NCBI GenBank assembly: GCA_944390905.1
Contig: CALXRR010000002.1
Location: 1-59,818, forward strand
DNA length: 59,818 nucleotides
Reading direction: 5' to 3'
DNA from: an uncultured Alphaproteobacteria bacterium
GTDB lineage: Bacteria; Pseudomonadota; Alphaproteobacteria; RF32; CAG-239
A program made the translations under genes and the position numbers. Below the pieces are notes generated by a model, which saw only the letters and a list, made by a program, of their open reading frames with translations, was not told where the DNA came from and ran no database searches. This document shows, one piece after another, positions 11,603 through 59,019 of this stretch. Numbering within the stretch: position 1 is the first letter of the stretch; every line of letters begins with the position of its first letter.

Positions 11603-11604
11603 GC

Positions 11605-13028: not shown

Positions 13029-13162
13029 ATTTTTTCCTTAATCAAATAATTAAAATTATCCCTAACGTAACATATAAATTTTTTTTTGTGTAGTCTAAAA
13101 GCACGCTTATCATACGTTTTTATAGCATTAAGATAGAATTTGCAAACAAATACACTCAAAAA

Positions 13163-37801: not shown

Positions 37802-37806
37802 CCGCC

Positions 37807-39854: not shown

Positions 39855-39855
39855 C

Positions 39856-42800
39856 ATGACTAAGCGCAATATTTTATGCTTTTTGCTCGGTACTTTCTTG
39901 TCCTTTGGAGGCATGGGTTCGGCGCAGGCTTTGTTTTTTGGCGTAGATGTCCCCACCATTGATGGTGTTACCGACGCTCTTTTCGGTACTGAGATTGTCG
40001 GTTCTACCATGAGCAATGTCAATACCGGCCTTATTATGGAGGTTCAGGGCAATATCCAAGATATCAAAGCCAAGTATAAAGAATATGCCAACGATTATGA
40101 AGGTGTTATGTTAAAGGACAAAGCCCCGCTTGAAGGAACCCGCACGATTACTTCATCAGAAAAATCCGACATTAAAGACCCGAGCACCACCAAGCGTGCG
40201 GTATATGATCTGTTTTTAGCGGCTCCGTCCAATGATTTTTATGAACAGAGAGACTATCAAGCACAGTCGATTCGTTTTTATCAAGATACTTTGATTGAGG
40301 TCAATACCGCGGTCAACCGACTTGAACAAGAATATAATGATAACCTAAAAGAAAAAATCGCCAATATGTCGGATGATTTGTTGAGCGGCGAAAATGGAGC
40401 CGAAGTCGGCGATGACGAAAATGGCTCATGGAAAAACAACTATAATGCCTATAAAACTTTTGACGATTTGGTACAGATTTGGGAGGAACTGGTAGCCCTA
40501 AAAGCCCAATTAACGGTAGCCAAAGCCATCAAAGATGACATCGCTCCAGCCAAGCCGGCCGAAAGTGATGCTCCATTAAAATCAGGAGATAATACCCAAA
40601 GCTTAACCACCAGCCAAGCCGATGGTGTATCATCAACCAAGCCTCAGCACTATGCCTTTAACAGCCCGCTGCATACCGAAACCTTAGCCTTTGCCCAGCA
40701 AAGCACCGGCACCTATCGCTATAATCCGGAGACTGACAGCAGCATCACTTTTGTTGATGCCCCGACGCCTGATATCGATTCTCCTTTTGCCGGCAGCCGT
40801 AATGAACTCAAAGATTTGGAGCGCCTTAACCCAATATATAACACCGCCGTCAAGGGAATGAAAATTCATAATCTCATCCAGTCGCTCCCTTCCAAGAAGG
40901 CGCTTTTTGACCAATATCATCAATACGAAAAATTGCATGAAAAAGCGGTTGCCAAGGTTAAAGAGTCAGACAATTGCGCTCTTCGTTATTTGAGCAAATA
41001 TTACCAAAACCCCGAGCAAACATGGTACGGAGCTTATATCGGCGAACAAGTAACCGACTATGATTTGCGCAAAGGCGTTTCCGGCTGGGCTATCAGCAGT
41101 TATGACACCGCCAAGGCAGCTTTGAGCAATCCGATAGATAGCGAAGATTTGGCTGAAATGGAGCTTGATGCAAGCCTTGATGGCACCAAATATGAAAATA
41201 TAGCCTCTCAAAAATCCTATGTTGAAGACCAATCCGCAAGCTTTGACGGCTATAAAGAGCAAAGCCAATATGACACCAATGAAGCCAATACCCGCATTGA
41301 GGAGCTTTTGCCCTGGAACATCGGAGCAGAAGCCGCCAAAGAGCTTGCCGATGACCAATACTCCGGCAGCCCGCAATGGGGTACCCCTAAGACGCTTTTT
41401 CCGGTCTGGAACGACCAAAAATCATTTTATGGCCAATACCTTAACGGCAAATACGCTAATATGAAAAATTATTTGAGCCGATTCGATTTTCGCAATCGCA
41501 TAGTGTTAGTTGCACAAATCCTCAATTCACTGTCTGATGCGCGTCTGGAGCTCAAGCAATATGCCGCTAAAGTGCTTAGTTCAATGGCTTCCGGCACTTC
41601 AGATATTGTCGAATATCCGAGCGATGGCAACCCCGACATCACCTCCGCCGCCGAGGAGAAAAAAGCCGCTATTGAAACCTTGCAAAAAAATTTAGAGGCC
41701 GCACTGCAAGCTCAGGAACAATCTCGAGCTGCGTTGGTAAAACAACTTGACAGCGCCCAAACCCGCCAAGATGAACTCAACCGCCAAATCAACCGTGCCC
41801 AAAACGCTAATATGAATGAGGACGCCAAGCTTCCCGAAGATGTTGACGTCGCCTCTCTTCAGCAAGAAGTCGATGCCCAAGACAAGACCATTGAAGACTT
41901 GCAAAGCCAAATTGATAAAATTGATGAGAAAATCTCCAACCTCCGAAAAGCTTATGTGCAAAAAGAGCAGAATATTGAGCAGCAATACGCTTCATTTGTG
42001 GTCAATATCAAAGATCCCGAGCTTAAAAAGCTGATCGTAGGAGCTTTGTCCGGAGCTGACATTCCCTCCGGCATGACAGCGGACCTTTTGGCTCAGGCAC
42101 AAGGCTATGTCGCCGGACTGGTCTCCACCTCGGAGGGCATTTTCTCTGATGTAAAGGATTATGCGCAAGAGGCTGTCGACCAAGCTTTGCAAGATATTTA
42201 CGGCTATGGTGATATTATCTACTTCCCCTCCGGCGAAAGCCAAATATTAGCCCGCCATATTCAGCTGATTAATGAGTTAAAACAGCTTCCGTTTGCCAAG
42301 CTTAGCCAGTCTAAGCCTTCGGTTAATGCCATAGCCTCTTCGGCAGAAGCTCTAAATTTGGTTACCACGGCATTCCAAAGCGCGCTGGTTGATGTTATCT
42401 GTCTCAATCAGCTTTGTGAAAATCCCGATAGTGACTATTTTGTAGGAGCTTCAGCACGCTTCCGTGACTTTAGTGCGCCCAAGGGGGCTCCTGCCACCAC
42501 CACCGCTCCTGTGCGAGAAATCGTCCATTTGGATTATATAGATTATGAAAACATTCCCCAGTTATCAGACGGCAGCGTGGCTAAGGCTGATATTTTGAAA
42601 TACGGTCAGCCGGTGCCCGAAGTCTGGAAATATATGCTAAAAAATCCGGCCTATGTTGAAAAAGACATAGACTTAGAGAGCGCCTTAAACCTCGGTGGTG
42701 AAGATCGCAACTTTATGCGAGGAGGCTTCTTGCCTTGCCGAGACGATAGCATGCTTATAGATGCCGTTGACGATAAAGCCGGCTATTATGTAGTCCCTGA

Positions 42801-43602
42801 TACTCACAGCTCTTATTTAAGCTGCCTGTTTCTAAAAGTTTCTTCAGGCTTGCTGAGTGGGCGCAAAGTCACCAACTCTGAAGCCGAAAAAGACCAAACC
42901 GTCAGCGCTGAGAGCAAAAGTAAAATCTCCAACGATTCGTTTAGCGAGCTTGGCACATTCTTTAAATATGAAAATGACAAACTCTATTTTCGTGAGATGC
43001 CAGCCAAAGCCTATAAGCGCTTAGCCGAAATCCACGGAGATACCACCACGGAAGAATATAAGGAGAATGTAGAGGATAATATCTATAAAAAAGCGGCCTT
43101 CTCCGATAACCAAATCGGCAACTTTTTGCGCTTTGTTGATATGGAACAAGAATATCGTCAAATTTTAGAGGAGTTGACCACCAAGATGGAACAAACCAAA
43201 GCCGACCTTTTTGAAGAGTTTAAAGAGGCAGGCTTTACCCCATCTGATGACTTTGATTTAAGCAATCCGGAGGATTACCGGCAAGCCCGCGATACTCTTG
43301 ATGCGCAAAAGAACAACCAAATCAACGCCGCGCAAAATATGTTACAGACATTAACTTCACCGGAGAATGACGTTGTCAAAGACCGCCGTACCGGAGTTGA
43401 AAACATGATAAATGCCTTGATAAAAGACGAAAATGAGCTTATTAATCTAAGTGAAGATACCGTTCCGGATAGTACTTTTGATGAGCGCTTAAAAACCGAA
43501 GAAGCCAATAATGCCATCGCTGATAAATATCAAGCCGAGGCAGATAAAGCTTTTGAAGACGCACTCAACAGTTTTCCGGCTCCGTATTGCGCCGCATATT
43601 AA
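39856..43602 (+). CDS. 1248-aa secreted T4SS-locus protein with VirB5-like N-terminal motif and central coiled coil
   Basis: RBS AGGAGGGAG then ATG at 39856, giving the signal peptide MTKRNILCFLLGTFLSFGGMGSAQA. The mature N-terminus LFFGVDVPTIDGVTDALFG echoes the VIPTVDATAI of 36269. No internal TM helices are seen. Confidence 0.55.
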   Translation: MTKRNILCFLLGTFLSFGGMGSAQALFFGVDVPTIDGVTDALFGTEIVGSTMSNVNTGLIMEVQGNIQDIKAKYKEYANDYEGVMLKDKAPLEGTRTITSSEKSDIKDPSTTKRAVYDLFLAAPSNDFYEQRDYQAQSIRFYQDTLIEVNTAVNRLEQEYNDNLKEKIANMSDDLLSGENGAEVGDDENGSWKNNYNAYKTFDDLVQIWEELVALKAQLTVAKAIKDDIAPAKPAESDAPLKSGDNTQSLTTSQADGVSSTKPQHYAFNSPLHTETLAFAQQSTGTYRYNPETDSSITFVDAPTPDIDSPFAGSRNELKDLERLNPIYNTAVKGMKIHNLIQSLPSKKALFDQYHQYEKLHEKAVAKVKESDNCALRYLSKYYQNPEQTWYGAYIGEQVTDYDLRKGVSGWAISSYDTAKAALSNPIDSEDLAEMELDASLDGTKYENIASQKSYVEDQSASFDGYKEQSQYDTNEANTRIEELLPWNIGAEAAKELADDQYSGSPQWGTPKTLFPVWNDQKSFYGQYLNGKYANMKNYLSRFDFRNRIVLVAQILNSLSDARLELKQYAAKVLSSMASGTSDIVEYPSDGNPDITSAAEEKKAAIETLQKNLEAALQAQEQSRAALVKQLDSAQTRQDELNRQINRAQNANMNEDAKLPEDVDVASLQQEVDAQDKTIEDLQSQIDKIDEKISNLRKAYVQKEQNIEQQYASFVVNIKDPELKKLIVGALSGADIPSGMTADLLAQAQGYVAGLVSTSEGIFSDVKDYAQEAVDQALQDIYGYGDIIYFPSGESQILARHIQLINELKQLPFAKLSQSKPSVNAIASSAEALNLVTTAFQSALVDVICLNQLCENPDSDYFVGASARFRDFSAPKGAPATTTAPVREIVHLDYIDYENIPQLSDGSVAKADILKYGQPVPEVWKYMLKNPAYVEKDIDLESALNLGGEDRNFMRGGFLPCRDDSMLIDAVDDKAGYYVVPDTHSSYLSCLFLKVSSGLLSGRKVTNSEAEKDQTVSAESKSKISNDSFSELGTFFKYENDKLYFREMPAKAYKRLAEIHGDTTTEEYKENVEDNIYKKAAFSDNQIGNFLRFVDMEQEYRQILEELTTKMEQTKADLFEEFKEAGFTPSDDFDLSNPEDYRQARDTLDAQKNNQINAAQNMLQTLTSPENDVVKDRRTGVENMINALIKDENELINLSEDTVPDSTFDERLKTEEANNAIADKYQAEADKAFEDALNSFPAPYCAAY

Positions 43603-43614: not shown

Positions 43615-44364
43615 ATGGCCGAGCAACATCTGGAAGCATCAAAAACATTATCCATTACAGACGAAAACGGGCATAAGCACGAATTTTTGAGCGAAGCCGA
43701 AAAAGAGGCCAACAGCGCCAAGCTAAATTATTATAAGTGGCTTTCGCGGCTGTTTATTTTCTTTGCGGTATTATCCTTGATTGTTTTTATGAGCTCTTCT
43801 CTGGCGCTGTTTAACCTTGCACCTCAAGTGAGTGTTGAGCCGTTTTTGATAATCAAACAAGATGCCTCGGAAAACATCGTCCGTTATGAACCTATTGAAA
43901 ACAACATGGCCTCCCAAAGCCAGTTGATGGAAATGTTTGTTAAGCAATACGTAATCCTCCGCAATACCATATTGCGAGATGAAGGTGAAATGATGCTCCG
44001 CTGGTACCCCGGAGGCATGGTCAATTTTTTATCATCAGACTATGTTTTTTCTGAATTTGATGCCTATCGCCGCGGCGTATGGCAAACCATGCTTGATAGC
44101 AAGATAGTCCGCGAGGTTGAAATCATTTCAGCCGAAAAGGTCGGCGGAGAGCAAAGCTCAGTATGGAAGGTTGACTTCCGCACCTTTGATTTGTCCGAAT
44201 ACGCCCGAGATAACAAAACCCGAGGCATGAAACTCCAAATCCGCTATTGGACAGCATCAATTACGGCATTTTTCTTTAAGGAGAGGGAGTTCGTCGGCCT
44301 CCGCTTAATCAACCCGATAGGCTTTACGGTTGTACGTTATTCTCAAACTGAAGTAGAGTTTTAA
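43615..44364 (+). CDS. virB8: VirB8-family protein (paralog 1)
   Basis: Bitopic, with the TM helix LSRLFIFFAVLSLIVFMSSSLALF followed by the NTF2-like periplasmic domain pattern (EPFLI......V....P......Q.L...FV.QYV..R...; NPIGFTVV.YS). Confidence 0.65.
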   Translation: MAEQHLEASKTLSITDENGHKHEFLSEAEKEANSAKLNYYKWLSRLFIFFAVLSLIVFMSSSLALFNLAPQVSVEPFLIIKQDASENIVRYEPIENNMASQSQLMEMFVKQYVILRNTILRDEGEMMLRWYPGGMVNFLSSDYVFSEFDAYRRGVWQTMLDSKIVREVEIISAEKVGGEQSSVWKVDFRTFDLSEYARDNKTRGMKLQIRYWTASITAFFFKEREFVGLRLINPIGFTVVRYSQTEVEF

Positions 44365-44483
44365 GCATATATTATATTAAGTTGGGGATTTTCTGGGCTA
44401 GACATTAGACTTTTAAAATAAAAAAGTATATCAATAAATACAGTATACTAAAAAATAAAAGCGCAAAATATGAAAGGCCTGTA

Positions 44484-44672
44484 ATGTCTAAAAAATTTCT
44501 TATACTTTTTATGGTGCTGTTTTTAACGGCCTGCGGAATTTTTGGCTCATATTATGAAGCCGAACCAATCGGTATCGGTAAAGGCGTTGATGAGCTTAAG
44601 CTTTCCCCTTGTGCCTGCCTGCAACTAGATTTGCCTAAAGATCTTCCGGACTGGTTTATTGAAACAATCTAA
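44484..44672 (+). CDS. Small lipoprotein, VirB7-like by size and position
   Basis: 62 aa with lipobox L-T-A-C in MSKKFLILFMVLFLTACG. It lies between the virB8 paralogs and upstream of virB9. Confidence 0.45.
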   Translation: MSKKFLILFMVLFLTACGIFGSYYEAEPIGIGKGVDELKLSPCACLQLDLPKDLPDWFIETI

Positions 44673-44693
44673 AACAACGGATAGGACGTCTAA

Positions 44694-45419
44694 ATGGTTG
44701 ATAAGCTTGAAGAAAGAGGCGATAAACAAAAGCTGCTTGGGCGAGCGGAGCGTTCCGGCGTAAATCAGCGCAAAGATAAAGATGTTTTTGTCGGCAATGT
44801 CGGAGAAAAAAGATACCTTTGGACCGCGCGAGCTTTTGCAATTATTACGGCAATCAGTCTTTGCTGTAATATTATCTTGATTCTGGCCATATCGCAAGTT
44901 ATCCCTCTTTACCGCATCGAGCCGTTTTTGTTGACCTTCCAAAATAAAGAAGATCAGGTTTATAATATCCAGCTTGTCCAAGGGCTGGAGGACGAAAAGG
45001 CTATTACCGAAGTTTTTGTTAGAGAATATGTTTTATTAAGAAGCTCCTTTGATAGAGATATTCCTGAGATGGAGTCTCGCTGGATGCCTGGCGGTCAAGT
45101 TCAAGAAATGTCTTCCCAAACAGTTTATGAAGACTTCATTCGCAATACTGCAAACCGAGCCTTGGAGCTGATTCGCACCCGCAATCTCCAGCGTACGGTT
45201 CGTATCTTAACAGTCAATGAGCTCGGGCGTGGACTTTGGCAGGTTGAGTATGAAACTCAAGATATGTATCCGGATTCGGCAGTGCCGGATGTCAATTATT
45301 GGACGGCCAATATGCGCATAACTTATCGCCCCAAGACCGTAAAATATGACGAACGCTTAAAAAATCCGATAGGATTTACGGTTGTACAGTATTCTTTAAC
45401 TTATAATAAGGTTAAATAG
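44694..45419 (+). CDS. virB8: VirB8-family protein (paralog 2)
   Basis: Same architecture as 43615..44364, sharing IEPFLLTF, VFVREYVLLRSSF and NPIGFTVVQYS. Confidence 0.65.
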   Translation: MVDKLEERGDKQKLLGRAERSGVNQRKDKDVFVGNVGEKRYLWTARAFAIITAISLCCNIILILAISQVIPLYRIEPFLLTFQNKEDQVYNIQLVQGLEDEKAITEVFVREYVLLRSSFDRDIPEMESRWMPGGQVQEMSSQTVYEDFIRNTANRALELIRTRNLQRTVRILTVNELGRGLWQVEYETQDMYPDSAVPDVNYWTANMRITYRPKTVKYDERLKNPIGFTVVQYSLTYNKVK

Positions 45420-45448
45420 AGCTATTATACAGATTAAGGTGTAACATA

Positions 45449-47080
45449 ATGATATCAAAGTTATCAAAAATATTTGTTCTGAGTCTTGTCGCCAGCGTTT
45501 TTGCCGGAGCTTCATCAGCACAGGTCACGATGAACAATCTTGATCAAAACGCCGACCAAAGTATGGGGCAATATATGCCGATGAATATGAATTATGCCGG
45601 CTTTAGCTCTCTTGGCATGACACAAGCTGCTTGGCTTGACCCATTGCAAAACTTGGGTGAAGGACAAAGCCGTCCGGCTTATTCCAAATATTATTGGAGT
45701 CCGGATTTGGTTTTGCCGGTTCGCTTGAGAGAAGGAATGATTACTTTGATAAACTTCCCTGATTGGGAACTCATTGAAGATATGTACATCGGAGATAATG
45801 CAACTTTTGACGGACAAATAAGCGGGCCTAATACCATTTTGCTTTACCCTCGTAAGGGCGCCAACGTCGGAGTCGATACAAACATCATTCTGTTTGGCCG
45901 CTCCGGCAACCGCTATGTGTTTTACGCCAAGAGTGAAGGCGTTAATACTGAAAGATTGACCAACTCCATTATAGATATAGATGTCGTTGAAGGCGCTAAC
46001 GGAGGGTCTTATTCCGGCGGCGGTAGTGGCAATCGTTCTTTTTCAGGGGGTATAGGTAAAGGTCGGGGTTCATCAGGATATTCAGCAGCATCAAGTTATA
46101 CCAAGCGCAATCAGCGCAACAACTGGATAGAGGATATTCCGGTTGACCCCAGCAAATTCCGTTTTGATATTGAAATTTATGTGCCAAACCCTGATGATGT
46201 AGTTATTGCGCCGGAGCGCGTCTGGAGAGACGATATCTTCACCTATATTGACTTAGGCGAAAAAGCCTTAAACATGACCCAGCGTCCGATAGTCACCATG
46301 ATAGTTGAGCGCTCTGAAGTTCCGGTCGGCTTCCGTACCAAAGGCCCTAACAACCGCTTGATAATAGTTGAAGGTGTCGGCGATATGGTTTTGCGTAATG
46401 GCAAAAGAATAGTCTGCCTTAAGCTTCGTCGTTCTGATGATGCCGGCATGGAAAATGTCAGCTATGCTGATGACTTGTTCTCTAACGAGTGGTATGTCCA
46501 AGCTCCGGTTCCCGGCCGTAATAGTGCCGAAATCGGTGACGGAAACGTTTTGCAAGGATTCGGCCCCAAATATCCTGAATACTCCGGCGGCATGCCTGGT
46601 AATTATGGCTATCCTCCGGCCGGCATGGGCGGCTCTGGAGCCATGAGCGGAGGTATGAACCCTTCAGGAATGAACGGGGCCGGTAGTGAATTTGGTAATG
46701 GCTATGACGGATTCGATTATTCGCAAATGCAGCATATCTCCAATACCGAGAACTACCCCTCTAACAGCAACGCCATTCGTGAGGCCATGGGCTATGGCAA
46801 AGGCATGAACGGCGCCGGCAGCGGTGACATCTCCATAGAACTAGGTGTAGATGCTCAAGTCAGCAACTTGGAGGCTCTGTGGTCTGATTTAAGCAAAAAA
46901 TATCCGGATATGCTGTCTCAGTATGAACCCTATTACTCCGTTGACACTCCGGCCGACGGCCATGGCAAAGAGCTTTTCCACCTCCGCATCGGCCCCATAA
47001 ATAATCTTGAAGACGGAGATGTTATCTGTAATCAACTTGGGCGGAACGGCGTGTTCTGCAGTGTGGTTAGAACGCAATGA
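45449..47080 (+). CDS. virB9: VirB9/TrbG-family core protein with Gly-rich inserts and a C-terminal SPOR-like domain
   Basis: Signal peptide, then an N-terminal VirB9 domain (LPVRLREGMITLINFP....IEDMYIGD...F......NTILLYP......DTNIILFG.SGNRYVFY). The C-terminal VirB9 domain follows (FRFDIEIYVP...IAPERVWRDDIFTYIDLG......RPIV...V). Residues about 462-543 read ISIELG....VSNLEALWSDL.KKYP.........Y.........G.ELFHLRIGPI....D.D..C..L...G..C.VV, which is SPOR-like. Confidence 0.7.
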   Translation: MISKLSKIFVLSLVASVFAGASSAQVTMNNLDQNADQSMGQYMPMNMNYAGFSSLGMTQAAWLDPLQNLGEGQSRPAYSKYYWSPDLVLPVRLREGMITLINFPDWELIEDMYIGDNATFDGQISGPNTILLYPRKGANVGVDTNIILFGRSGNRYVFYAKSEGVNTERLTNSIIDIDVVEGANGGSYSGGGSGNRSFSGGIGKGRGSSGYSAASSYTKRNQRNNWIEDIPVDPSKFRFDIEIYVPNPDDVVIAPERVWRDDIFTYIDLGEKALNMTQRPIVTMIVERSEVPVGFRTKGPNNRLIIVEGVGDMVLRNGKRIVCLKLRRSDDAGMENVSYADDLFSNEWYVQAPVPGRNSAEIGDGNVLQGFGPKYPEYSGGMPGNYGYPPAGMGGSGAMSGGMNPSGMNGAGSEFGNGYDGFDYSQMQHISNTENYPSNSNAIREAMGYGKGMNGAGSGDISIELGVDAQVSNLEALWSDLSKKYPDMLSQYEPYYSVDTPADGHGKELFHLRIGPINNLEDGDVICNQLGRNGVFCSVVRTQ

Positions 47081-50000
47081 GTAAAGAAGTCTTAACACAT
47101 TCAGAAGCTTATGTTAAGAAAACCAACCGTATTATTCTTACGGTTGGTCTTACTTCTTTAATAATATTTTTGGCCGGTCTCTACCTGTTGTACGAGAGCA
47201 AGCAAAAAACAACCGAGTATGTAGAGCCGGTTTTGACCGGCAATGATGATGCACTCAATTTTGGTTCGGCCAATCCGTTAGATAATAATATTGAATTTAA
47301 TACTATTGATGATACGCAGGTTCCCATAACCTTAACCCCCAACCCCGTGCCGATGGGGCAAGTTGTCTTGGGAAACACGGCTGACAATGTCTTGACCATA
47401 GGTACCAATGGCAAGGCAGCCATCAAGATAGTCTCAGTCCAGTTGGCCGAGCCGCCTGCTGACGGCTTTACGTTTAAGGATGGGTGTACCAATATTGATT
47501 TAAGCGGAGACCGCACCTGCCATATCACGATGAACTGGGCGCCTGTTGTTGCCGGCAATGTCCAGAACAACTTTATTGTCACTTGGTATGAGACCAACCT
47601 TGGAGCCGGCAACAGCAAAGCTGAAAAAGTTCCGGTTATCGGCAATGCCATAGATGTCACCGACTGCAATTTTTGTGAAAATGCGCCTCAAACCGGCAGC
47701 TCTGAAACATCACAACCAGAAAGTTATCAGCTTGTCAGTGAGGCCATCGGCCCCAAAGGCGATGTTATCGGTTATGTCGATGAAAACGGCTATGTCCGTG
47801 ACAAAAACGGCAAGATTATCGGTCGCGTAAATGAAAACGGCTTGGTTGTCGATGACGCCGGCAATATCATAGGAGTTTCCGGCAACCGTCGTCTGGTTTT
47901 GGATGAAAACGGCAATGTCATCGGCTACGTCAATCCCGATGGAACCGTAGTTGATAAAAACGGCAACATTATCGGTCGCATGCTTCCGGATGGTACAGTT
48001 GTTGATGCCAACGGCAATATTTTGGGCAAGGCGCTGGATGCAGGTTATGTCTATGACAAAGACGGCAATATCATCGGCCGCGTATTGCCTGACGGCACGG
48101 TAGTTGATATGAACGGCAATGTTATCGGCCGCTTAAATGAAAAAGGAGAAGTCGTTGACGCTAATGGCAATGTCATTGGCTATGTCACCAAACCCGGCAA
48201 AGTCGCAATTGATGAAAACGGCAATCCTTTAGGCGTCGTTATGCCGGACGGTACTGTTGTTGATACCAACGGTCAGGTTATCGGCCGCTTAGATGAAAAC
48301 GGCAATGTAAGTACTGACAACATCATCGGCCAAGCCAGTGACATCATGCGCCGCTTGGCTTATGATAAAGACGGCAATGTTATCGGCTATATTGATGAAA
48401 ATGGCAATGTCCGCGATTTTAACGGCAATATCATCGGCAGAATGCTTGAAGACGGTACCTTGGTTGATGCCAATGGCAACGTTATAGGCAAAGCCGGAGA
48501 TTACGCCCGCTTGGCAGTGGATAAAGACGGCAATGTCATCGGCTATATCACCAGTGACGGCCGCGTTATAGATTCCAACGGCAATCAAATAGGCTATCTT
48601 GATGAAAACGGCAACATCATATCCGGCGTTCTTAAAAAAATTGGCTCCTTAGTCCCGCAAGATATGATACCGATAACCCCTTCCGGAGAGGTATTGGGAA
48701 CAATCAATAATGACGGCAGTATAACTGATGTCGGCGGCCAGACCGTAGGGCGAGTATTGTCCAACGGATTGGTTAAAGACCCATCCGGCTCCAAGGTAAT
48801 AGCCCGCTTGGTTCGTGGAGGTTTGGTTGTTGGGTACGGCTGTAAAAATATAGGTTTTTTGGATAAAGACGGCAAAGTCCGCAAAGGTGAAACCGTTTTT
48901 GATTATAAGGTTATGCCGGACGGAGTTGTTATAGATACCTCCAACCAATACGTCGGAGAAATCATCACCCCGGGCCCAGCCTTTGACAACAACTGCACCT
49001 TGATAGGCACAATCGGCAATGACGGACTGGTCAGAGATTCGGGGAATAACTATGTCGGCTGTGTCAATCCGGATGGCATTATCTTAGATGACAAAGGCGA
49101 TATTATCGGCGGTGCGCGTAAGGAAGGCGTCGCCGTATCTTATGACGGAGATTATCTCGGCCGCGTTAATGATGAAGGCTTGATAGTCAATGCGGCCTCC
49201 TTACCGGTAGGCTGTATTGGCGCTTATGGAGATGTCTTTAACAAGAACGGAGGCTATATCGGCCACATTCAAGAACATACCTTTGGTTATGACTTAAAAG
49301 GCAATTTCTTAAATACGCTTGATGAACGAGCCGAAGTCTCGGTTAAAGGAGAGAAACCCTACCGCCTCTTAGCCAACAATCTTTTGGTTAATGACAACAA
49401 TCAAATCACCGGTGTAGCTCTGCGCGGCAAGTCTGTTATTGGCAATGCCGACGGCCGCTTTATGGGTAGAGTATTTCCTGATGGCAAGGTCTATAATTCC
49501 GACGGCTCTCCGATAGGCAAAATCACCGGCGACGGTTTCAGCTTTTACAACAACCAACTTGGACGGATTCTCCCTGTTGGTGAAGTAGTAGACTTCAAAG
49601 GCCAAAGATTAGGCCGCGCCAACTATGACGGCAATGTCGTCAGCAAGTTTGGTGAGATATTGGGTCATATTGACGCCAAAGGAGTATTTATTGATAACAA
49701 GGGCGAATATCGCGGCGCCGTAGTCAGCAAAGGCCCTGCGATAGGTTATGACGGCTCTTATCTTGGTTATGCGGTATCTGACGGCAGCGTCATTAGCACC
49801 GAAGGTCAAAGAGCAGGGCGAGTCAGCTCCGATTCTAAAGTTATCAGCCCGACAGGTGAAGTCATAGGAGAGGTTATTCCTGAAAATATAGTTATTGATA
49901 TTTGGGGCAGCTATAAAGGCCGCATGAATTCTCTTGGAGACATTCTTGACTTGAAAAATGATAACATCACTGCTATCCTACCCGGAGGCTCAAGTGACAA

Positions 50001-50508
50001 AAACTTAAGCTTGCTCAAGAGAGGAGCCACGCTTGATTATAGCGGTAATTTATCCGGAGCGGTAATGCCGGACGGTAGCACCATCAACCTTGATAACGCC
50101 ATCACGGGCAGGGTTTTGTCAGACGGCAGCACAGTCAATAAGAACGGCAAACTTAACGGAGCCGTAATTTACGGAGATATAGTTATCAATAACGCCGATA
50201 AAGTCGTTGGCTATGTTACAATTGACGGCAAAGTCAAAAACACCGGAGGAGAGGTCATCGGCCGTATGTTATCCGATGAGCTTGCGGTAGATACTAATGA
50301 CAATATCCTCGGGCGAGTTTATAAAATAGGCACTATTGTTTTGAAGAACGACGGTAGTTTTGTAGGACGTTTGTCACCTGACGGCAGCGTTGTCAGCACC
50401 ACAGGTACGAATATTGGTTACCTTAAGAACAATGGCTCATATATAGATTTAGATAAAAAAGTATCAGGCTATGCTTTGCAAGAAGTAGCCAAAAACAGGA
50501 GGAACTAG
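47077..50508 (+). CDS. 1143-aa membrane-anchored protein built from a 17-residue repeat (D-x-N-G-N-[IV]-I-G-x-[VLM]-x-x-D-G-x-V-V)
   Basis: The ATG overlaps the virB9 stop (ATGA). It has an N-terminal TM helix (ILTVGLTSLIIFLAGLYLLY) and a possible Ig-like beta domain (residues about 80-180). From residue 225 I counted consecutive 17-aa units by hand. Confidence 0.8.
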   Translation: MSKEVLTHSEAYVKKTNRIILTVGLTSLIIFLAGLYLLYESKQKTTEYVEPVLTGNDDALNFGSANPLDNNIEFNTIDDTQVPITLTPNPVPMGQVVLGNTADNVLTIGTNGKAAIKIVSVQLAEPPADGFTFKDGCTNIDLSGDRTCHITMNWAPVVAGNVQNNFIVTWYETNLGAGNSKAEKVPVIGNAIDVTDCNFCENAPQTGSSETSQPESYQLVSEAIGPKGDVIGYVDENGYVRDKNGKIIGRVNENGLVVDDAGNIIGVSGNRRLVLDENGNVIGYVNPDGTVVDKNGNIIGRMLPDGTVVDANGNILGKALDAGYVYDKDGNIIGRVLPDGTVVDMNGNVIGRLNEKGEVVDANGNVIGYVTKPGKVAIDENGNPLGVVMPDGTVVDTNGQVIGRLDENGNVSTDNIIGQASDIMRRLAYDKDGNVIGYIDENGNVRDFNGNIIGRMLEDGTLVDANGNVIGKAGDYARLAVDKDGNVIGYITSDGRVIDSNGNQIGYLDENGNIISGVLKKIGSLVPQDMIPITPSGEVLGTINNDGSITDVGGQTVGRVLSNGLVKDPSGSKVIARLVRGGLVVGYGCKNIGFLDKDGKVRKGETVFDYKVMPDGVVIDTSNQYVGEIITPGPAFDNNCTLIGTIGNDGLVRDSGNNYVGCVNPDGIILDDKGDIIGGARKEGVAVSYDGDYLGRVNDEGLIVNAASLPVGCIGAYGDVFNKNGGYIGHIQEHTFGYDLKGNFLNTLDERAEVSVKGEKPYRLLANNLLVNDNNQITGVALRGKSVIGNADGRFMGRVFPDGKVYNSDGSPIGKITGDGFSFYNNQLGRILPVGEVVDFKGQRLGRANYDGNVVSKFGEILGHIDAKGVFIDNKGEYRGAVVSKGPAIGYDGSYLGYAVSDGSVISTEGQRAGRVSSDSKVISPTGEVIGEVIPENIVIDIWGSYKGRMNSLGDILDLKNDNITAILPGGSSDKNLSLLKRGATLDYSGNLSGAVMPDGSTINLDNAITGRVLSDGSTVNKNGKLNGAVIYGDIVINNADKVVGYVTIDGKVKNTGGEVIGRMLSDELAVDTNDNILGRVYKIGTIVLKNDGSFVGRLSPDGSVVSTTGTNIGYLKNNGSYIDLDKKVSGYALQEVAKNRRN
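47749..50460 (+). repeat. In-frame 51-nt (17-aa) coding repeat array
   Basis: Examples are DKNGKIIGRVNENGLVV / DENGNVIGYVNPDGTVV / DKNGNIIGRMLPDGTVV / DKDGNIIGRVLPDGTVV / DMNGNVIGRLNEKGEVV. At the DNA level, gatgaaaacggcaatgt-type strings recur. Confidence 0.8.
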
Positions 50509-50509
50509 G

Positions 50510-53500
50510 TTGAATAAATTGTTGCGAAAAATCACTCGATTAGGTGTTTTCACGCTGCTTGTCGGCCTGCTGAAGATTTCCGGAGCGCAATCCTTAGAGA
50601 TAACCGCCATTGATTTTAACGGAGACTTACTCGGAAAAGTCATCCCTGACGGCAAGGTGGTTAGCTTTGACAACCAGTTAATAGGCAACATCACCGCCGA
50701 CAGTTTAATAGTTAATTTTGAAGGCAAACTTATCGGTGGCGCGGTTCCTCAAGGCATAGCCATTGGCAACGACAATCGCCTTTTGGGTAAGGTTAATAAT
50801 GACGGCACGGTTCGCGTCGCATCAGGTAAGATTATAGGCAAAGTATTGCCCAACGGCTTGGTTGTTGATGATTATTATAATGTTATCGGCGCGGTTTTAT
50901 TCCCTGGGCTGGTTTATTCAGACGAAGGCAAAACGGTCGGACGCTTAACCGGTGATGGTGTTTACAGCAACCTTCAGGGTGAGGTCATCGGCTTTTTAAC
51001 ACCTGATGGCTATGCCTACCGCCGCACAGACAGAGACATCAGCTTAGACGGCCGCCTTATTTCCTCCAAAATGATAATCTCACCGGAAGGCAAGTTTATC
51101 GGCAGCATCGTCCCCGGAGGTCAAATCACCGATTTTGACGGCCAAAACATAGGCTTTATCCACGCTAACGGCTTGGCGTATAATGAAGCAGGTCAAATTA
51201 TCGGCCGCTTGGTTCGCTCTGGCTATGCCTTTGATGACAACGGTGCTTATATAGGTTTTGTTATGTATAACGGAGAAGTCGTCAACAAAGACGGAGTTAT
51301 AGGCCATTTGTTGATAGACGGGCGCATCGCCGACCAAAACGGCAAACCAATAGGCTTTGCGCTAGACATCAGCGCTACGGCTACTGACAATGAGGGCAAA
51401 TACTTGGGGCGTTTAATCCCCGGCGGCCAAATCGTTCAGGCAAAAGAGACGGTCGGCATGGTCGGCCCTCGCGGAGTTGTGGTTGATAAAGACAATAATA
51501 TCATCGGCGAAATCACCCGTACCGGCCCTATTTTTGATTATAAAGGCCGCATCTCGGGTCATGCCTTAAAAGACGGCTCGGCAATATCTTTGGGCGGCAA
51601 TCGTATAGGCTATGTTGTAGGCAAGAATAGCTTTGACAATACCGGCAGTTTGATAGGCAAACTCTTTGACTATGGTCAGGTTATCCGTTTGGACAATACC
51701 CCTGCCGGCACCGTAGGCATAAGCGGCCGCATTATTAATAATAAGGAGACACTTCAGGCCAGTCCGTTTGGCTATGTCTATGGTCCGCAAGGCAATGTAG
51801 CCGGAGTTTTGGTTGACAGTGGCACTTTGTTTAGCGTCAACGGCGGTATAGCCGGCTATGTTAATGCCAACGGCGGCTTGGAGAACAAAGGCGCCAAGCT
51901 CAGCGGAACCTTAACCCAGTCCGGTTTGGCACTCAGTCCGGAGGGCCGAGTTTTGGGCGGAATTATATCCGCATTGCGCGCTCAAACTTTCTCCGGCAAT
52001 CTTTTAGGACTGTTGTCCGACGGCAATCAGGTCTTGGATACTGACAACAAAATGCTCGCCAAGATATTGCCGGATAATTCGGTGGTTTCGGCACTCAGCA
52101 GCAATTCAGCCGAGCTCAATCCGGTAGTAGGGCATGTTAACGCTTCTGATTTTGCGGTTAACTTGAGCGGGCGCCTTTTGGGCTATACCACCCGCACCGG
52201 CCGCCTTAAGGACACCTCCGGACTTTATTTCGGCAAATCAACCGGAGACGGCAGTGCCCTTGATACCAACGGCAAATATCTCGGCGGCTTGCAAAATTAT
52301 GCCGCAGTGGTTGATATGTCCGGAGAGCTTTTGGGCAATATCACACCGCAAAACCAGATTCGCAATTACCGCGGAGTAAATTCCGGTCATGTCTTGTTAA
52401 ACGGTCAAGCCGTAGCTGAAAACGGCTCTATTATAGGATATGCAATTCCTTCGGGCTTGATTATTGACTTTAACGGCAAAATATTAGGCAGCATCTCAGC
52501 CGGCGGCGATGTGCTCAATAATAGCAACGAAAATTTAGGCAAGGTCGATTGGCAGGGGCGTCTATATAATGCCGAAGGAGCCTTGTTGGGCAGCAGAATA
52601 TCTTATTATCCGGTCATAAGCTTCAACCACGCCATTATCGGCCGTAGCGTTATTGATGGCCAAATCGTCAACCCCAACAATCAGTTTATCGGCAGAGTCC
52701 AGCCCAACGGCAATATTGTGTCTGAAAGCGGCAATTCCATAGGTTCTCTTTTCAAATATAAGTTTGCGTTTGATAATAAGAACCGGTTTTTGGGCAGGGT
52801 TAATAATCAGGCAGAAGTTATTGATGCAGAGGGCAAAATTCTGGGACAAGTCAATTTTGACGGTTATGTTATTAATAATAATGAAAAGATAGGCTACGCC
52901 TTATACGATTTGTATATTTATGATAACAACGGTCGAGCCCAAGGCTATATTGAATCTGACGGAAGTATTTTGTCGTTTTTATCCGAGCGCTTAGGTCAAA
53001 TCGACCGCGGTTTTATGGTTGATAAAAATAGTAAGGTCTTGGGGCGTGGCAATCGCGATTATACTATCCGCGCAGAGCAAAACAAACCTCTGGGAGAGCT
53101 CCGGATGAACGGTGATCTCATAGATTATAGCGGCAAAACCATCGGCCGCTTAGGCAGTGACGGCAATATCTTTGATGAAAGCGGGAAGGTTTTGGCCGTA
53201 GCCACTCCGCTCCAGTATTATAATGTTACTATCGACCGCGAAAAAGTCTACGATGCCGAGGGCAAGGTTGTTGGTTATCTGGCTAATGACGGCAATGTCT
53301 ATGATGAAAATGGCAAGCTTATAGGCAAGCTCAATCCAGATGGCACCGTAAGCGGCTCTGACGGGAGCATTATCGGCGGTATCGGCACCGATTGGTACGA
53401 AAAAGTCAAACTTGATATCCCTGATAAAAAACTCCCGCAAGTAGGCATCCATAAGAGTGAAGATGACTTAGAGCTAGAACTCAAAAATAAAGAATACCGC

Positions 53501-54964: not shown

Positions 54965-54975
54965 TGAGGTAAAAT

Positions 54976-55947
54976 ATGAGTGATTTCAAAGTACTAGAAT
55001 CAGTTTTACGCCCGCTTTCCGCTTGGTATAATCAGGATAATATAGAGGAAGTAGCCATCAACAAAGCCGGTCAAATCTGGCTCCGCCTTCGCGGTAAAAG
55101 AGCTTATCCCTGGGTAATGTATAAGGATGAAAACTTAACCAAATCCTATTTGACAGATTTGTTGTATATCATTGCTAACACCTATGAATTGCCGTTTGAC
55201 CCGATATCCGGCTCACCGGTGGTTTATGCCAGCATCCCCGGAGACCATCGTTTTTCAGCGATTGCGGGCAAAAACGTGATGTACGATGAAGACGACTTGA
55301 CCGGTGGCATAGCTTTAACAATCCGTGTCCATGCTGATGACGTTGCCTTTGGATTAAAAGATTACGGCTTGACCCAAGGACACGGCTTGCACAAAATCAA
55401 CCCGTTAAAGGACATTAAAGACCCCAAAGACCCTTATGAACGCTTGTTGCTCAGCATCAAAAGGGGCGACCATATTTTAATCAGCGGCGCCACCTCCACC
55501 GGTAAAACGACCTTTTTGAATAATCTGCTCAAGATACTTGATTTGCACAAAAGAATAGTCACGATTGAAGACACGCGCGAACTTATAGTCCCGCACCCCA
55601 ACCGCGTCCACTTGGTTTTGTCGCGAACCGAGCAAACCAACGAGTTTAATTATTCTAAAGTGATAGACTTGGTGGTGCGCTTTACCCCGGACGCCATTAT
55701 CGGAGGAGAAATTTCCACCGGCAACGCCGGCGCAATATGGGAGCTGATGGGTTCCGGTCATGACAACTGCTTGGCGACCATCCACGCCGAAAGCTCAGAG
55801 GCCGCATACGAGGCTTTTGTTGACCGTATCTTGCATACTTATCCCACCATTGACCGCAACAAGACTATTCAAGAAATGCACCGCCGCTTGCGCGTGGTAC
55901 AAATCAGCCGCGAAGGCAACCTCCGCGCCGTTACCGAAGTCACTTAA
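54976..55947 (+). CDS. virB11: VirB11 T4SS ATPase
   Basis: Walker A ISGATSTGKTT, Asp box RIVTIEDTRELIV, Walker B AIIGGEI and His box GHDNCLATIHAES. 323 aa. Confidence 0.85.
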   Translation: MSDFKVLESVLRPLSAWYNQDNIEEVAINKAGQIWLRLRGKRAYPWVMYKDENLTKSYLTDLLYIIANTYELPFDPISGSPVVYASIPGDHRFSAIAGKNVMYDEDDLTGGIALTIRVHADDVAFGLKDYGLTQGHGLHKINPLKDIKDPKDPYERLLLSIKRGDHILISGATSTGKTTFLNNLLKILDLHKRIVTIEDTRELIVPHPNRVHLVLSRTEQTNEFNYSKVIDLVVRFTPDAIIGGEISTGNAGAIWELMGSGHDNCLATIHAESSEAAYEAFVDRILHTYPTIDRNKTIQEMHRRLRVVQISREGNLRAVTEVT

Positions 55948-58909: not shown

Positions 58910-59019
58910 TAAATAAAAGTTGTTAAAATTAATATTATTGTTATATTTAATTTATTGAAGTATTATTTATTTTATAGAGATAGTCAACTACTTAAGTAAG
59001 CCGACGGAGAAAAAACACC

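What the first reader, a model, noticed from the sequence alone, without database searches (positions are those of the whole stretch)
47077..50508. Extra 1143-aa repeat protein inserted between virB9 and virB10, made of the same 17-aa unit
No standard VirB/Trb locus has a gene between virB9 and virB10. This ORF is translationally coupled to virB9 by an ATGA overlap. It has one N-terminal TM helix and a roughly 100-aa region that looks like an Ig/PapD-like beta sandwich (PITLTPNPVPMGQVVLG...IKIVSVQLAEPPADGFTF...CHITMNWAPVVAGNVQNNFIVTWYE).

A very regular repeat follows. I counted at least eight consecutive exact 17-aa units (DKNGKIIGRVNENGLVV, DDAGNIIGVSGNRRLVL, DENGNVIGYVNPDGTVV, DKNGNIIGRMLPDGTVV, DANGNILGKALDAGYVY, DKDGNIIGRVLPDGTVV, DMNGNVIGRLNEKGEVV ...). 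If the period holds to the C-terminus there are on the order of 50 units. That number is an estimate, not a count.

The array is better conserved than the one in virB10, so it is either younger or homogenised. The pair could form a repeat-repeat heteromeric stalk or sheath around the core complex.
Basis: seen in the sequence. Interest (0 to 1): 0.85.

Follow-up and report, generated by a model that had tools for sequence, protein, structure and literature searches.

The report
Front half of a split VirB10
The gene between virB9 and virB10 is not an added part: it is the membrane-anchored front half of a giant, repeat-filled VirB10 that one group of uncultured gut Alphaproteobacteria has split into two genes, which is unusual because VirB10 is normally a single chain linking the inner and outer membranes.

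Summary
ORF 47077-50508 encodes 1143 aa. It overlaps virB9 by ATGA and ends 1 nt before virB10. It has one N-terminal TM helix, an ASH/PapD-like beta sandwich, and about 50 beta-hairpin units of 17 aa (Pfam Bflower_2, 5.4e-66).

The interpretation needs correcting. In sister lineages the same N-terminal module (conserved cytoplasmic tail, TM, ASH domain, CxxC) heads a single 1500-2360-aa VirB10 that continues through the same repeats and ends in the TrbI barrel. Those loci read virB8-virB8-virB9-VirB10-virB11, with no separate gene.

In 87 loci of the window's clade, from gut MAGs of humans, birds, ruminants and rodents, VirB10 is always two genes:
- X keeps the inner-membrane anchor.
- The downstream gene starts with a variable Sec signal peptide that has a conserved AxA site.

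On a VirB11 tree the split clade is monophyletic and the unsplit forms lie outside it.

X is under purifying selection (dN/dS about 0.08). Its units are positionally orthologous between species, so the array is old and not homogenised.

That the two halves re-associate through their arrays is inferred, not shown.

Verdict: a new variant of a known kind, comparable to the repeat-bearing VirB10 homologues CagY and DotG.

The parts
47077..50508 (+). Gene X, the N-terminal half of a split VirB10 ('VirB10-N'), 1143 aa
   Evidence: ORF. Pfam Bflower_2 5.4e-66, DUF3659, Bflower. N-terminal module homologous to unsplit TrbI-containing VirB10. Syntenic in 87 loci. dN/dS about 0.08.
47077..47196 (+). 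Conserved short cytoplasmic tail (MSKEVLTHSEAYVKKTNR) and single TM helix, aa 1-40: the inner-membrane anchor
   Evidence: Kyte-Doolittle windows. AF2 helix 9-40. Invariant Y12, K15, N17 in alignments A1/A2. The motif Y[VL][KR]K[TS]N[RT][IT][IL]L recovered 141 genomes. The tail-TM-sandwich module is also aligned in the unsplit proteins.
47326..47652 (+). ASH/PapD-like Ig beta sandwich, aa 84-192, with invariant C137 and C148
   Evidence: Foldseek matches to HYDIN, CEP192, OCRL, MSP and PapD-type chaperones. Sub-threshold Pfam ASH and NCBIfam choice_anch_D. The same domain occurs in tandem in many giant proteins.
47665..47676 (+). Invariant CxxC motif (C197-N-F-C200) just after the sandwich, followed by a disordered linker
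   Evidence: Alignments A1/A2. pLDDT below 50 at aa 191-215.
47731..50475 (+). Array of about 50 beta-hairpin units of 17 aa (consensus D-x-N-G-N-I-I-G-x-V-x-x-D-G-T-V-V), aa 219-1133. Very regular to about aa 515, degenerate afterwards. Four invariant Cys at 589, 640, 662 and 713.
   Evidence: Autocorrelation. Unit HMM. AF2 strands. Pfam. Invariant columns.
50476..50505 (+). Conserved C-terminal tail ...LQEVAKNRRN, a predicted short helix. Its last codons carry the Shine-Dalgarno AGGAGG (50497-50502) of the downstream gene.
   Evidence: AF2 helix 1134-1142. Tail and 'cggaggaa' conserved in about 85 loci.
45449..47080 (+). virB9 (CagX domain, low-complexity insert, weak SPOR-like C-terminus). 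Its stop overlaps the X start (ATGA).
   Evidence: Pfam CagX 1.4e-11 and SPOR 0.0015. Overlap read.
50510..54964 (+). Downstream half of the split VirB10 ('VirB10-C'), 1484 aa: signal peptide, about 40-60 repeat units, Gly-rich linker, TrbI barrel, Ser/Pro-rich tail
   Evidence: Pfam Bflower_2 4.5e-60 and TrbI 1.5e-32. NCBIfam VirB10/ComB10 domain hits.
50510..50593 (+). Predicted cleavable Sec signal peptide of VirB10-C (MNKLLRKITRLGVFTLLVGLLKISGAQS), in place of the ancestral TM anchor
   Evidence: No Kyte-Doolittle 19-mer above 1.6 in the window protein. Across 76 orthologues the sequence is variable (20% identity), the prepeptide is 24-35 aa, position -1 is A/S/G in 76/76 and position -3 is A/V/T/S in 75/76, directly before the conserved mature N-terminus [QEI]EITAIDFNG.
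50612..53647 (+). Repeat array of VirB10-C (aa 35-1046). The first roughly 120 mature residues are the best-conserved part (73-83% identity).
   Evidence: Unit HMM. Conservation profile.
53966..54538 (+). TrbI/VirB10 C-terminal barrel domain (aa 1153-1343)
   Evidence: Pfam PF03743 1.5e-32. NF038091 4.2e-30.
54976..55947 (+). virB11 ATPase; closes the conserved block
   Evidence: Pfam T2SSE 4.4e-21. Synteny.
43615..45419 (+). Two virB8 paralogues (43615..44364, 44694..45419) flanking a 62-aa lipoprotein ORF (44484..44672)
   Evidence: Pfam VirB8. ORF with lipobox LTAC. The same small ORF lies between the virB8 genes in related loci.

Best explanation
Gene X is the N-terminal half of VirB10.

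**Ancestral state.** In this group of gut Alphaproteobacteria, the ancestral VirB10 was one giant bitopic protein with five parts:
- a short cytoplasmic tail;
- one TM helix;
- an ASH/PapD-like Ig domain;
- about 75-100 beta-hairpin repeats of 17 aa (Pfam beta-flower / DUF3659 type);
- the TrbI barrel that joins VirB9 in the outer-membrane core.

**What changed.** In the window's clade this gene was cut within the repeat array. X keeps the inner-membrane anchor, the Ig domain and about 50 hairpins. The downstream gene keeps about 40-60 hairpins and the TrbI barrel, and it gained a Sec signal peptide. It therefore reaches the periplasm on its own, probably without a membrane anchor.

**Expression.** The two genes are translationally coupled: ATGA overlap with virB9, and the Shine-Dalgarno sequence of virB10 inside the last codons of X.

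**Shown here:** the homology, the architecture, the invariant synteny, the purifying selection and the signal-peptide signature.

**Inferred:**
- The split is a fission of an unsplit ancestor, about 0.8 likely.
- The two halves re-associate non-covalently in the periplasm through their hairpin arrays, most plausibly at the well-conserved C-terminal end of X and the very conserved first ~120 mature residues of VirB10-C. This would restore the inner-to-outer-membrane link that VirB10 normally provides as one chain. About 0.5 likely.
For: 1. **Homology of the N-terminal module.** An exhaustive phmmer search with X aa 1-222 finds proteins of 1498-2363 aa aligned over query residues 1-~205 at 26-36% identity. 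The four scanned (P0148, P0162, P0178, P0195) carry Bflower_2 repeats and a C-terminal TrbI domain.
2. **Unsplit loci.** The loci of P0162 and P0148 read virB8-small ORF-virB8-virB9-[giant VirB10]-virB11. The genes contain no Ns and were recovered on independent contigs.
3. **Hydrophobic segments.** Unsplit proteins have a single hydrophobic segment, at the N-terminus. The window's VirB10-C has none above threshold.
4. **Split loci.** All 87 related loci show ...virB9-X-virB10-virB11 wherever the contig reaches. A genome scan finds relatives in 141 species-level genomes.
5. **Junction.** It is conserved in about 85 loci: tail ...EVA[KQ]NRRN, SD cggaggaa, a 0-6 nt gap in varying frames, then a variable signal peptide with A/S/G at -1 in 76/76 and A/V/T/S at -3 in 75/76, before the conserved mature N-terminus.
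6. **Polarity.** On a midpoint-rooted VirB11 NJ tree the split loci are monophyletic and the unsplit lineages lie outside. A one-chain TM-plus-TrbI layout is the canonical VirB10 architecture (my knowledge of the family; CagY and DotG are described as spanning both membranes in PMC10706595 and PMC6761968).
7. **Selection.** dN/dS against L009 is 0.076 for X, compared with 0.052 for virB9, 0.132 for virB10 and 0.018 for virB11.
8. **Candidate interface.** The first ~120 mature residues of VirB10-C are 73-83% identical across 76 sequences. That matches the TrbI domain, whereas the middle of the array is 28-50%. The last 43 residues of X rise to 61%.
Against: - No interaction between the halves was tested; no multimer prediction was available.
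- The break point cannot be mapped. The X tail and the VirB10-C mature N-terminus match many positions of the unsplit proteins. X aligns best to residues 1-1245 of P0148 and VirB10-C to 819-2201, an overlap of about 430 residues. Duplication followed by reciprocal loss fits as well as simple fission followed by repeat gain.
- Polarity rests on midpoint rooting and only two unsplit lineages with locus data.
- 54 of 76 VirB10-C prepeptides exceed the TM-like hydrophobicity threshold, so an uncleaved signal anchor is not excluded in some species.
- dS is saturated (about 1.5), so dN/dS values are rough.
- The negative correlation between X and VirB10-C lengths (Spearman -0.46, n=74) is not corrected for phylogeny, and the summed length is no less variable than X alone.
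Confidence: 0.72

Rival explanations
1. X is a true extra accessory subunit. A tandem duplication of the giant virB10 gave two copies. The upstream copy lost TrbI and now does a separate job, such as a periplasmic scaffold or spacer around the core complex, without linking to VirB10-C.
For: - X and VirB10-C together hold about 113 unit-lengths, against 75-102 in unsplit proteins.
- Their best alignments to P0148 overlap by about 430 residues.
- VirB10-C has its own export signal.
Against: - VirB10-C has lost the whole N-terminal module (tail, TM, ASH, CxxC), and X has lost exactly the complementary part. Between them the two genes retain one copy of each non-repeat domain.
- The summed length (mean 2734 aa) is close to that of unsplit proteins (1930-2363 aa), not double.
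- No lineage with two full copies was seen.
Confidence: 0.15
2. The hairpin array is a cell-wall or carbohydrate-binding module. X would tether the machine to peptidoglycan, or be a surface adhesin or variable antigen like the CagY repeat region.
For: - The beta-flower paper notes relatives annotated as cell-wall-binding or MORN-like (PMC10584680).
- Foldseek gives weak local matches to choline-binding proteins and Rhs/YD repeats.
- VirB9 next door has a weak SPOR-like domain.
Against: - TM-scores are about 0.1 and rmsd is above 20 Å, so there is no real fold match.
- X is inner-membrane anchored by its N-terminus, so surface display is unlikely.
- Strong purifying selection, no DNA-level repeats and positional orthology of units are the opposite of the CagY-type recombining array.
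- No ligand-binding motif was identified.
Confidence: 0.1
3. The split is an artefact: a frameshift or pseudogene, or a mis-assembly of a repetitive gene.
For: - Repeat-rich genes are prone to assembly errors.
- L008 does show a false split at a 10-N scaffold gap.
- L084 has an interrupted X.
Against: - There are no Ns in the window.
- The same stop, SD, start and signal-peptide junction occurs in about 85 independent species-level assemblies from many studies.
- Both halves are under purifying selection.
- The frame offset varies between species, so no conserved frameshift or readthrough could fuse the halves.
Confidence: 0.01

Closest known systems
Canonical VirB10 / TrbI (e.g. Agrobacterium VirB10, pKM101 TraF)
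   Same: Same locus position, after virB9 and before virB11. Short cytoplasmic tail plus one TM helix at the N-terminus (in X). TrbI barrel at the C-terminus (in the downstream gene). Together the two genes reproduce the VirB10 layout.
   Different: Canonical VirB10 is one chain of about 380-480 aa with a short proline-rich periplasmic linker (my knowledge). Here the linker is replaced by an ASH domain and about 100 beta-hairpin repeats, and the chain is divided into two genes.
Helicobacter pylori CagY
   Same: A giant VirB10 orthologue with a large repeat region between the N-terminus and the VirB10 domain (PMC5954226).
   Different: - CagY repeats are alpha-helical modules (PMC2581425) encoded by direct DNA repeats that recombine (PMC2194252, PMC3585145).
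- The repeats here are all-beta hairpins with no DNA-level repeats. They are positionally orthologous and under purifying selection.
- CagY is one chain.
- No sequence similarity was detected between them.
Legionella/Coxiella DotG (IcmE)
   Same: A VirB10-family protein with a conserved TrbI C-terminus and a variable, repeat-filled middle region that enlarges the protein (PMC6761968).
   Different: DotG repeats are pentapeptide repeats and show frequent recombination. Here the period is 17 aa and the array is stable. DotG is a single chain.
Beta-flower proteins (Pfam PF21784/PF21785, clan CL0395) and DUF3659
   Same: X scores 219.9 bits on Bflower_2 (cutoff 38) and 93.6 on DUF3659 (cutoff 24.8). 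It has the same hairpin unit, with a [DNEQ]xxG turn (PMC10584680).
   Different: The described beta-flowers are small single domains of about 96 residues with 8-12 strands and unknown function. Here about 50 (X) plus about 50 (VirB10-C) hairpins are embedded in a T4SS core subunit. Whether they close into discrete flowers or form a continuous structure could not be determined.
Rhs/YD-repeat proteins (Tc toxin BC, T6SS Rhs, teneurins)
   Same: Similar beta-hairpin repeat motif: Pfam RHS_repeat 1.1e-09 and TIGR01643 8.1e-10. They are also the top local Foldseek matches.
   Different: No global fold match (TM about 0.1). No Rhs core or toxin domain. Shorter and more regular unit.
Rickettsiales vir homologue (rvh) T4SS layout
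   Same: Duplicated virB8 genes with a small lipoprotein gene between them, then virB9-virB10-virB11. The comparison with rvh is from my own knowledge.
   Different: RvhB10 is of ordinary size and is a single gene (my knowledge). Membership of the rvh lineage was not tested phylogenetically.

Membership tests
VirB10/TrbI family (PF03743) | C-terminal TrbI beta-barrel domain | tested here: not met
   X has no TrbI hit. The domain is in the downstream gene, aa 1153-1343, at 1.5e-32. X alone is therefore not a complete VirB10.
VirB10/TrbI family (PF03743) | N-terminal short cytoplasmic tail plus a single TM anchor (bitopic inner-membrane topology) | tested here: met
   Kyte-Doolittle windows above 1.6 only at aa 17-23. 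AF2 helix 9-40.
VirB10/TrbI family (PF03743) | Homology to the corresponding part of proteins that contain TrbI | tested here: met
   X aa 1-~205 aligns to the N-terminus of P0148, P0162, P0178 and P0195 (E 1e-22 to 1e-13). All four end in TrbI.
VirB10/TrbI family (PF03743) | Encoded between virB9 and virB11 | tested here: met
   X plus the downstream gene occupy that slot in 87 loci. A single gene occupies it in the unsplit loci.
Beta-flower, Pfam PF21785 Bflower_2 (clan CL0395) | Score above the Pfam gathering threshold | tested here: met
   219.9 bits against 38, in 9 stretches. Bflower PF21784 scores 87.9 against 25.
Beta-flower, Pfam PF21785 Bflower_2 (clan CL0395) | Beta-hairpin 'petals' with a semi-conserved [DNEQ]xxG turn motif | tested here: met
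   Unit consensus DxNGxxIGxVxxDGxVV. Alternating 5- and 3-residue strands every 17 aa. The motif definition comes from PMC10584680.
Beta-flower, Pfam PF21785 Bflower_2 (clan CL0395) | Hairpins close into a shallow 4-, 5- or 6-fold symmetric barrel | tested here: inconclusive
pTM is 0.69 for the whole protein and 0.42 for the repeat fragment. There is no PDB analogue.
ASH / PapD-like Ig domain (PF15780; NCBIfam choice-of-anchor D) | Sequence score above the curated cutoff | tested here: not met
   ASH 21.4 bits against 27. choice_anch_D 28.3 against 45.
ASH / PapD-like Ig domain (PF15780; NCBIfam choice-of-anchor D) | PapD/MSP-type beta-sandwich fold | tested here: met
   Foldseek probability 1.00 to the HYDIN PapD-like domains (2e6j, TM 0.65), CEP192 ASH (6fvi, 0.60), MSP (1m1s, 0.63) and OCRL ASH. 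Domain pLDDT is about 55-83.
Rhs/YD-repeat proteins | YD repeat motif above cutoff | tested here: met
   PF05593 scores 38.8 against 22 and TIGR01643 scores 38.8 against 15.8 for the whole protein, but no single stretch passes on its own.
Rhs/YD-repeat proteins | Repeats form a closed Rhs shell with an Rhs core and C-terminal toxin | tested here: not met
   No Rhs core or toxin domain in Pfam or NCBIfam. Foldseek TM about 0.1 to Rhs/Tc/teneurin shells.
CagY-type repeat VirB10 | Repeat region encoded by direct DNA repeats that recombine in frame; alpha-helical modules | tested here: not met
   TRF finds no array in 45000-55000 apart from a 23-nt element. Units share 56% nt identity. The model is all beta. 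Units are positionally orthologous.
DotG-type repeat VirB10 | Pentapeptide repeats in the middle region | tested here: not met
   The period is 17, with no peak at lag 5. No pentapeptide Pfam hit.

The most novel reading that the evidence does not exclude
A whole order-level clade of gut Alphaproteobacteria may run a T4SS in which the VirB10 bridge is two polypeptides. The inner-membrane half (X) and a Sec-exported outer-membrane half would be held together only by complementation between beta-hairpin (beta-flower) arrays, building a periplasmic assembly of about 100 hairpins per protomer. This would be the first natural two-piece VirB10 and the first functional context for the beta-flower repeat. 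It would show that covalent continuity of VirB10 is not needed for inner-to-outer-membrane coupling.
Probability: 0.45. Interest if true: 0.8.

Novelty: new variant of a known kind. Interest (0 to 1): 0.66.

Why it matters
VirB10 is regarded as the one T4SS subunit that spans both membranes and passes energy-dependent conformational signals from the inner-membrane ATPases to the outer-membrane pore. A lineage in which this chain is naturally cut, and has stayed cut under purifying selection across well over a hundred gut species, is a natural experiment on whether that coupling needs a continuous polypeptide.

It also gives the beta-flower / DUF3659 hairpin repeat its first clear cellular context: the periplasmic part of a secretion-machine core subunit. 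Until now that repeat was a fold of unknown function found by mining AlphaFold models.

It adds a third, structurally different case to the repeat-expanded VirB10 homologues CagY and DotG. Unlike those two, this array is evolutionarily stable rather than recombining.

The carriers are common, uncultured commensal Alphaproteobacteria of human and animal guts. No paper on their T4SS turned up in the searches that ran.

Tried and rejected
- **PDB sequence search with X.** No hit at E ≤ 1.
- **Foldseek with the whole model.** It found only the N-terminal ASH domain. With a repeat-only model it gave local hairpin-repeat matches at TM about 0.1, so no global analogue.
- **Mapping the break point.** I aligned the X tail and the VirB10-C mature N-terminus to the unsplit proteins. 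The matches are ambiguous because of the repeats, and the motifs EITAIDFNG and GYxLxEVA are absent from the unsplit proteins.
- **L008.** It looked like a lineage with a 276-aa X and a 1906-aa VirB10. I rejected this: there is a 10-N scaffold gap inside the array, and L091 from the same lineage has one 2201-aa gene.
- **Homogenisation or gene conversion.** Rejected.
- **Programmed frameshift or readthrough joining X to VirB10-C.** Rejected, because spacing and frame vary between species.
- **Length compensation between X and VirB10-C.** There is a negative rank correlation, but it is weak, not corrected for phylogeny, and the summed length is no less variable than X alone. I do not rely on it.
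- **Promoter and terminator scan.** Counts are at chance level, so the scan is uninformative beyond showing no obvious internal signals.
- **Literature.** Nothing on a T4SS of RF32 or CAG-239 Alphaproteobacteria. DUF3659 appears only in a fungal lipid-droplet preprint. Three searches for a split or fissioned VirB10 failed technically. Absence of prior description therefore rests on limited searches and my own knowledge.

Full report
**1. The observation**

The ORF at 47077..50508 (+) is real and encodes 1143 aa.
- Its ATG overlaps the virB9 stop as ATGA. Its own stop (TAG, 50506-50508) lies one base before the TTG start of virB10 at 50510. An AGGAGG at 50497-50502 sits inside the last codons of X.
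- Neighbour identities: virB9 has a CagX domain (1.4e-11). The downstream 1484-aa gene has a TrbI domain at aa 1153-1343 (1.5e-32) after a long repeat region. Two VirB8 genes lie upstream, VirB11 downstream and VirB4 further upstream.
- Protein autocorrelation shows a sharp period of 17: 25.6% identity at lag 17 in X, against 5-12% at other non-multiple lags, and 18.7% in VirB10.
- A unit HMM detects 42 units over aa 227-1121, a span of 53 unit lengths. The AlphaFold2 model has 100 short strands between aa 219 and 1133 with a modal two-strand spacing of 17, about 50 hairpins.
- The repeat is a recognised Pfam type: Bflower_2 PF21785 at 219.9 bits (cutoff 38), DUF3659 and Bflower, with weaker RHS/YD-repeat hits.

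**2. The non-repeat part**
- The AF2 model (mean pLDDT 80.4, pTM 0.69) has a helix at aa 9-40, a disordered linker, a beta sandwich at aa 84-192, another disordered linker, the all-beta array, and a short C-terminal helix.
- Foldseek against the PDB matches only the sandwich, and the matches are ASH/PapD-like domains: HYDIN, CEP192, OCRL, MSP and pilus chaperones. Sequence-level ASH and choice-of-anchor-D hits are below their cutoffs.
- Orthologue alignments show an invariant cytoplasmic motif (Y12, K15, N17), two invariant Cys in the sandwich, an invariant CxxC at 197-200, four invariant Cys inside the array, and an invariant C-terminal ...NRRN.

**3. Distribution**
- X has about 30 full-length orthologues at 38-50% identity among the listed hits. 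There are also many VirB10 proteins with the same repeats plus TrbI.
- A scan of one genome per species found relatives of the X N-terminal module in 141 genomes. The 80 loci kept are all uncultured gut Alphaproteobacteria from humans, chickens ('Candidatus Scatocola'), ruminants, deer, rabbit and mouse.
- Across the 87 non-duplicate loci held, the order [1274-aa protein]-virB8-virB8-virB9-X-virB10-virB11 is invariant wherever the contig extends (71 complete). None lacks X.
- X is 1037-1602 aa long and VirB10 is 1398-1886 aa long.

**4. The key result**

An exhaustive search with X aa 1-222 gave two kinds of hit.
- Many giant proteins contain tandem copies of the ASH-like domain.
- A set of proteins of 1498-2363 aa align from residue 1 to about 205 of X (tail, TM, sandwich) at 26-36% identity.

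Four of the second kind were scanned. All have the same Bflower_2 repeats and end in a TrbI domain. They have only one hydrophobic segment, at the N-terminus.

Their loci read virB8-small ORF-virB8-virB9-[giant VirB10]-virB11, with no intervening gene. This holds for L089/L090 (P0162) and L091 (P0148). These genes contain no Ns and were recovered on independent contigs.

L091 is also flanked by an isochorismatase gene and a DEAD-box helicase gene. The same gene types lie just downstream of the window's T4SS at 58058-59568, which suggests the same chromosomal locus.

X is therefore the N-terminal part of VirB10, not an inserted extra gene. An apparent 276-aa X in L008 is an artefact of a 10-N scaffold gap.

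**5. The junction**

In about 85 split loci the junction has the same parts:
- X ends in ...GYxLxEVA[KQ]NRRN.
- The final codons carry the SD 'cggaggaa'.
- A gap of 0-6 nt follows, in varying frames.
- The downstream gene then starts.

The varying frame rules out a conserved frameshift or readthrough fusion.

The downstream protein begins with a 24-35-aa prepeptide. Its sequence is variable (20% identity across 76 sequences). It has basic residues near its start, an uncharged stretch (median 17 aa), A/S/G at -1 in 76/76, and A/V/T/S at -3 in 75/76. The nearly invariant mature N-terminus [QEI]EITAIDFNG follows directly and is already the first repeat.

This is the signature of a cleavable Sec signal peptide. 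Cleavage itself is predicted, not shown. In 54 of 76 orthologues the prepeptide is hydrophobic enough that an uncleaved anchor cannot be excluded.

**6. Polarity**
- On a midpoint-rooted NJ tree of VirB11 the split loci form one clade and the unsplit lineages fall outside it.
- VirB8, VirB9 and VirB11 of unsplit loci are less similar to the window than those of any split locus; the VirB10 C-terminal region does not separate the two groups.
- The canonical VirB10 is a single chain with an N-terminal TM and a C-terminal TrbI domain (family knowledge).
- Together these favour one fission at the base of the split clade.
- Duplication followed by reciprocal loss is not excluded. X and VirB10-C align to overlapping parts of the unsplit protein. 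Together they span about 113 unit lengths, against 75-102 in the large unsplit proteins.

**7. Evolutionary behaviour of the array**
- TRF finds no period-51 DNA repeat.
- The eight most regular units share 52% aa and 56% nt identity.
- X and virB10 share only two DNA matches of about 47 nt.
- X of the window aligns collinearly with orthologues at 57-65% identity and with almost no indels.
- Individual units are most similar to the unit at the same position in other species: 78% against 48% for L007, with 14 of 15 best matches positional.
- dN/dS against the closest relative is 0.076 for X, 0.052 for virB9, 0.132 for virB10 and 0.018 for virB11. dS is saturated, so these values are approximate.

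The array is therefore old, stable and constrained. It is not young, not homogenised and not diversifying, in contrast to CagY and DotG (PMC2194252, PMC3585145, PMC6761968).

**8. Mechanism**
- *Shown.* X carries the ancestral inner-membrane anchor. VirB10-C carries the outer-membrane TrbI domain and an independent export signal. The two genes are tightly coupled in one gene block, and both are conserved.
- *Inferred.* To keep the VirB10 bridge, the two halves must associate in the periplasm.
- *Support for the inference.* The most conserved non-TrbI parts are the first ~120 mature residues of VirB10-C (73-83% identity, as high as TrbI), the first ~10 regular units of X (59-70%) and the X C-terminal end (61%). 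These are candidate interfaces. Hairpin complementation at the break point is the simplest model.
- *Still open.* What the ~100 hairpins per protomer do is unknown. Candidate roles are a periplasmic cage or stalk, a spacer, or cell-wall interaction. No solved structure resembles the array globally, and the beta-flower fold has no assigned function (PMC10584680).

**9. Comparison with known systems and verdict**

The closest known systems are these:
- canonical VirB10 (same role and position, but a single short chain);
- CagY and DotG (repeat-expanded VirB10 homologues with different repeat chemistry and recombining arrays);
- the small beta-flower proteins (same unit, unknown function);
- Rhs/YD repeats (local motif only).

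I found no paper on this T4SS. Searches aimed specifically at a split VirB10 failed technically.

I rate the finding as a new variant of a known kind. The homology-based reinterpretation is well supported, but the physical model is only moderately supported.

Noticed in passing
window 44484..44672 (+): A 62-aa ORF between the two virB8 genes has a lipoprotein signal (MSKKFLILFMVLFLTAC..., lipobox LTAC). It is probably a VirB7-like lipoprotein. A 58-65-aa ORF sits at the same place in all related loci inspected. From my own knowledge, this layout recalls the Rickettsiales rvh system.
   Followed up: partly
window 45449..47080 (+), virB9: This VirB9 is long (543 aa). It has Gly/Ser- and Gly/Met/Asn-rich low-complexity stretches and a weak SPOR-like C-terminal domain (E 0.0015). 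A faint SPOR hit is also recorded for the L005 orthologue. This suggests peptidoglycan binding by VirB9.
   Followed up: no
window 39778..43602 (+): A 1274-aa ORF immediately upstream of the first virB8 has no significant Pfam hit (only a weak NCBIfam SMC-related hit). It has an N-terminal hydrophobic segment. It is syntenic in essentially all split loci (1309-1415 aa in those inspected). It is an uncharacterised, conserved component of this T4SS block. The unsplit L089 locus has a 703-aa gene in the same place.
   Followed up: partly
window 54560..54964 (+), VirB10-C aa ~1350-1484: After the TrbI domain, VirB10-C carries a poorly conserved C-terminal extension of about 135 aa (23-28% identity). 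It ends in a Pro/Ser-rich tract (PPPPPSSSTSS...SSSSSSS).
   Followed up: no
window 50497..50505: The invariant C-terminal residues R-R-N of X are encoded by AGGAGGAAC, which is also the Shine-Dalgarno sequence of the downstream gene. Part of the protein-level invariance may therefore reflect an RNA-level constraint.
   Followed up: partly
window 47740..48636 (X aa 222-520): Synonymous divergence against L009 is lower in the most regular repeat block (dS 0.87) than in the N-terminal region (1.93) or the rest of the array (2.13). Possible causes are codon or RNA-level constraint, or occasional intragenic conversion. It is unexplained.
   Followed up: no
L084:~10001-13700; L008:9963-9972: In L084, X is interrupted after 504 aa and restarts, so it is either a frameshift/pseudogene or an assembly error. 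L008 has a 10-N scaffold gap inside the array that creates a false 276-aa X.
   Followed up: partly
window 30709..33252 (+) and 36269..39854 (+): An 847-aa ORF upstream of virB4, and three ORFs (510, 284 and 398 aa) between virB4 and the 1274-aa gene, have no significant family hits beyond coiled-coil-like matches. No VirB2, VirB3, VirB5, VirB6 or VirD4 was recognised in the window by Pfam or NCBIfam. A TrbL/VirB6-like gene lies about 7 kb downstream in L006.
   Followed up: no
window 58058..59568 and L091:3935-6008: DEAD-box helicase and isochorismatase genes flank the T4SS block both in the window and in the unsplit-VirB10 lineage. This suggests a conserved chromosomal position rather than a mobile element.
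   Followed up: partly
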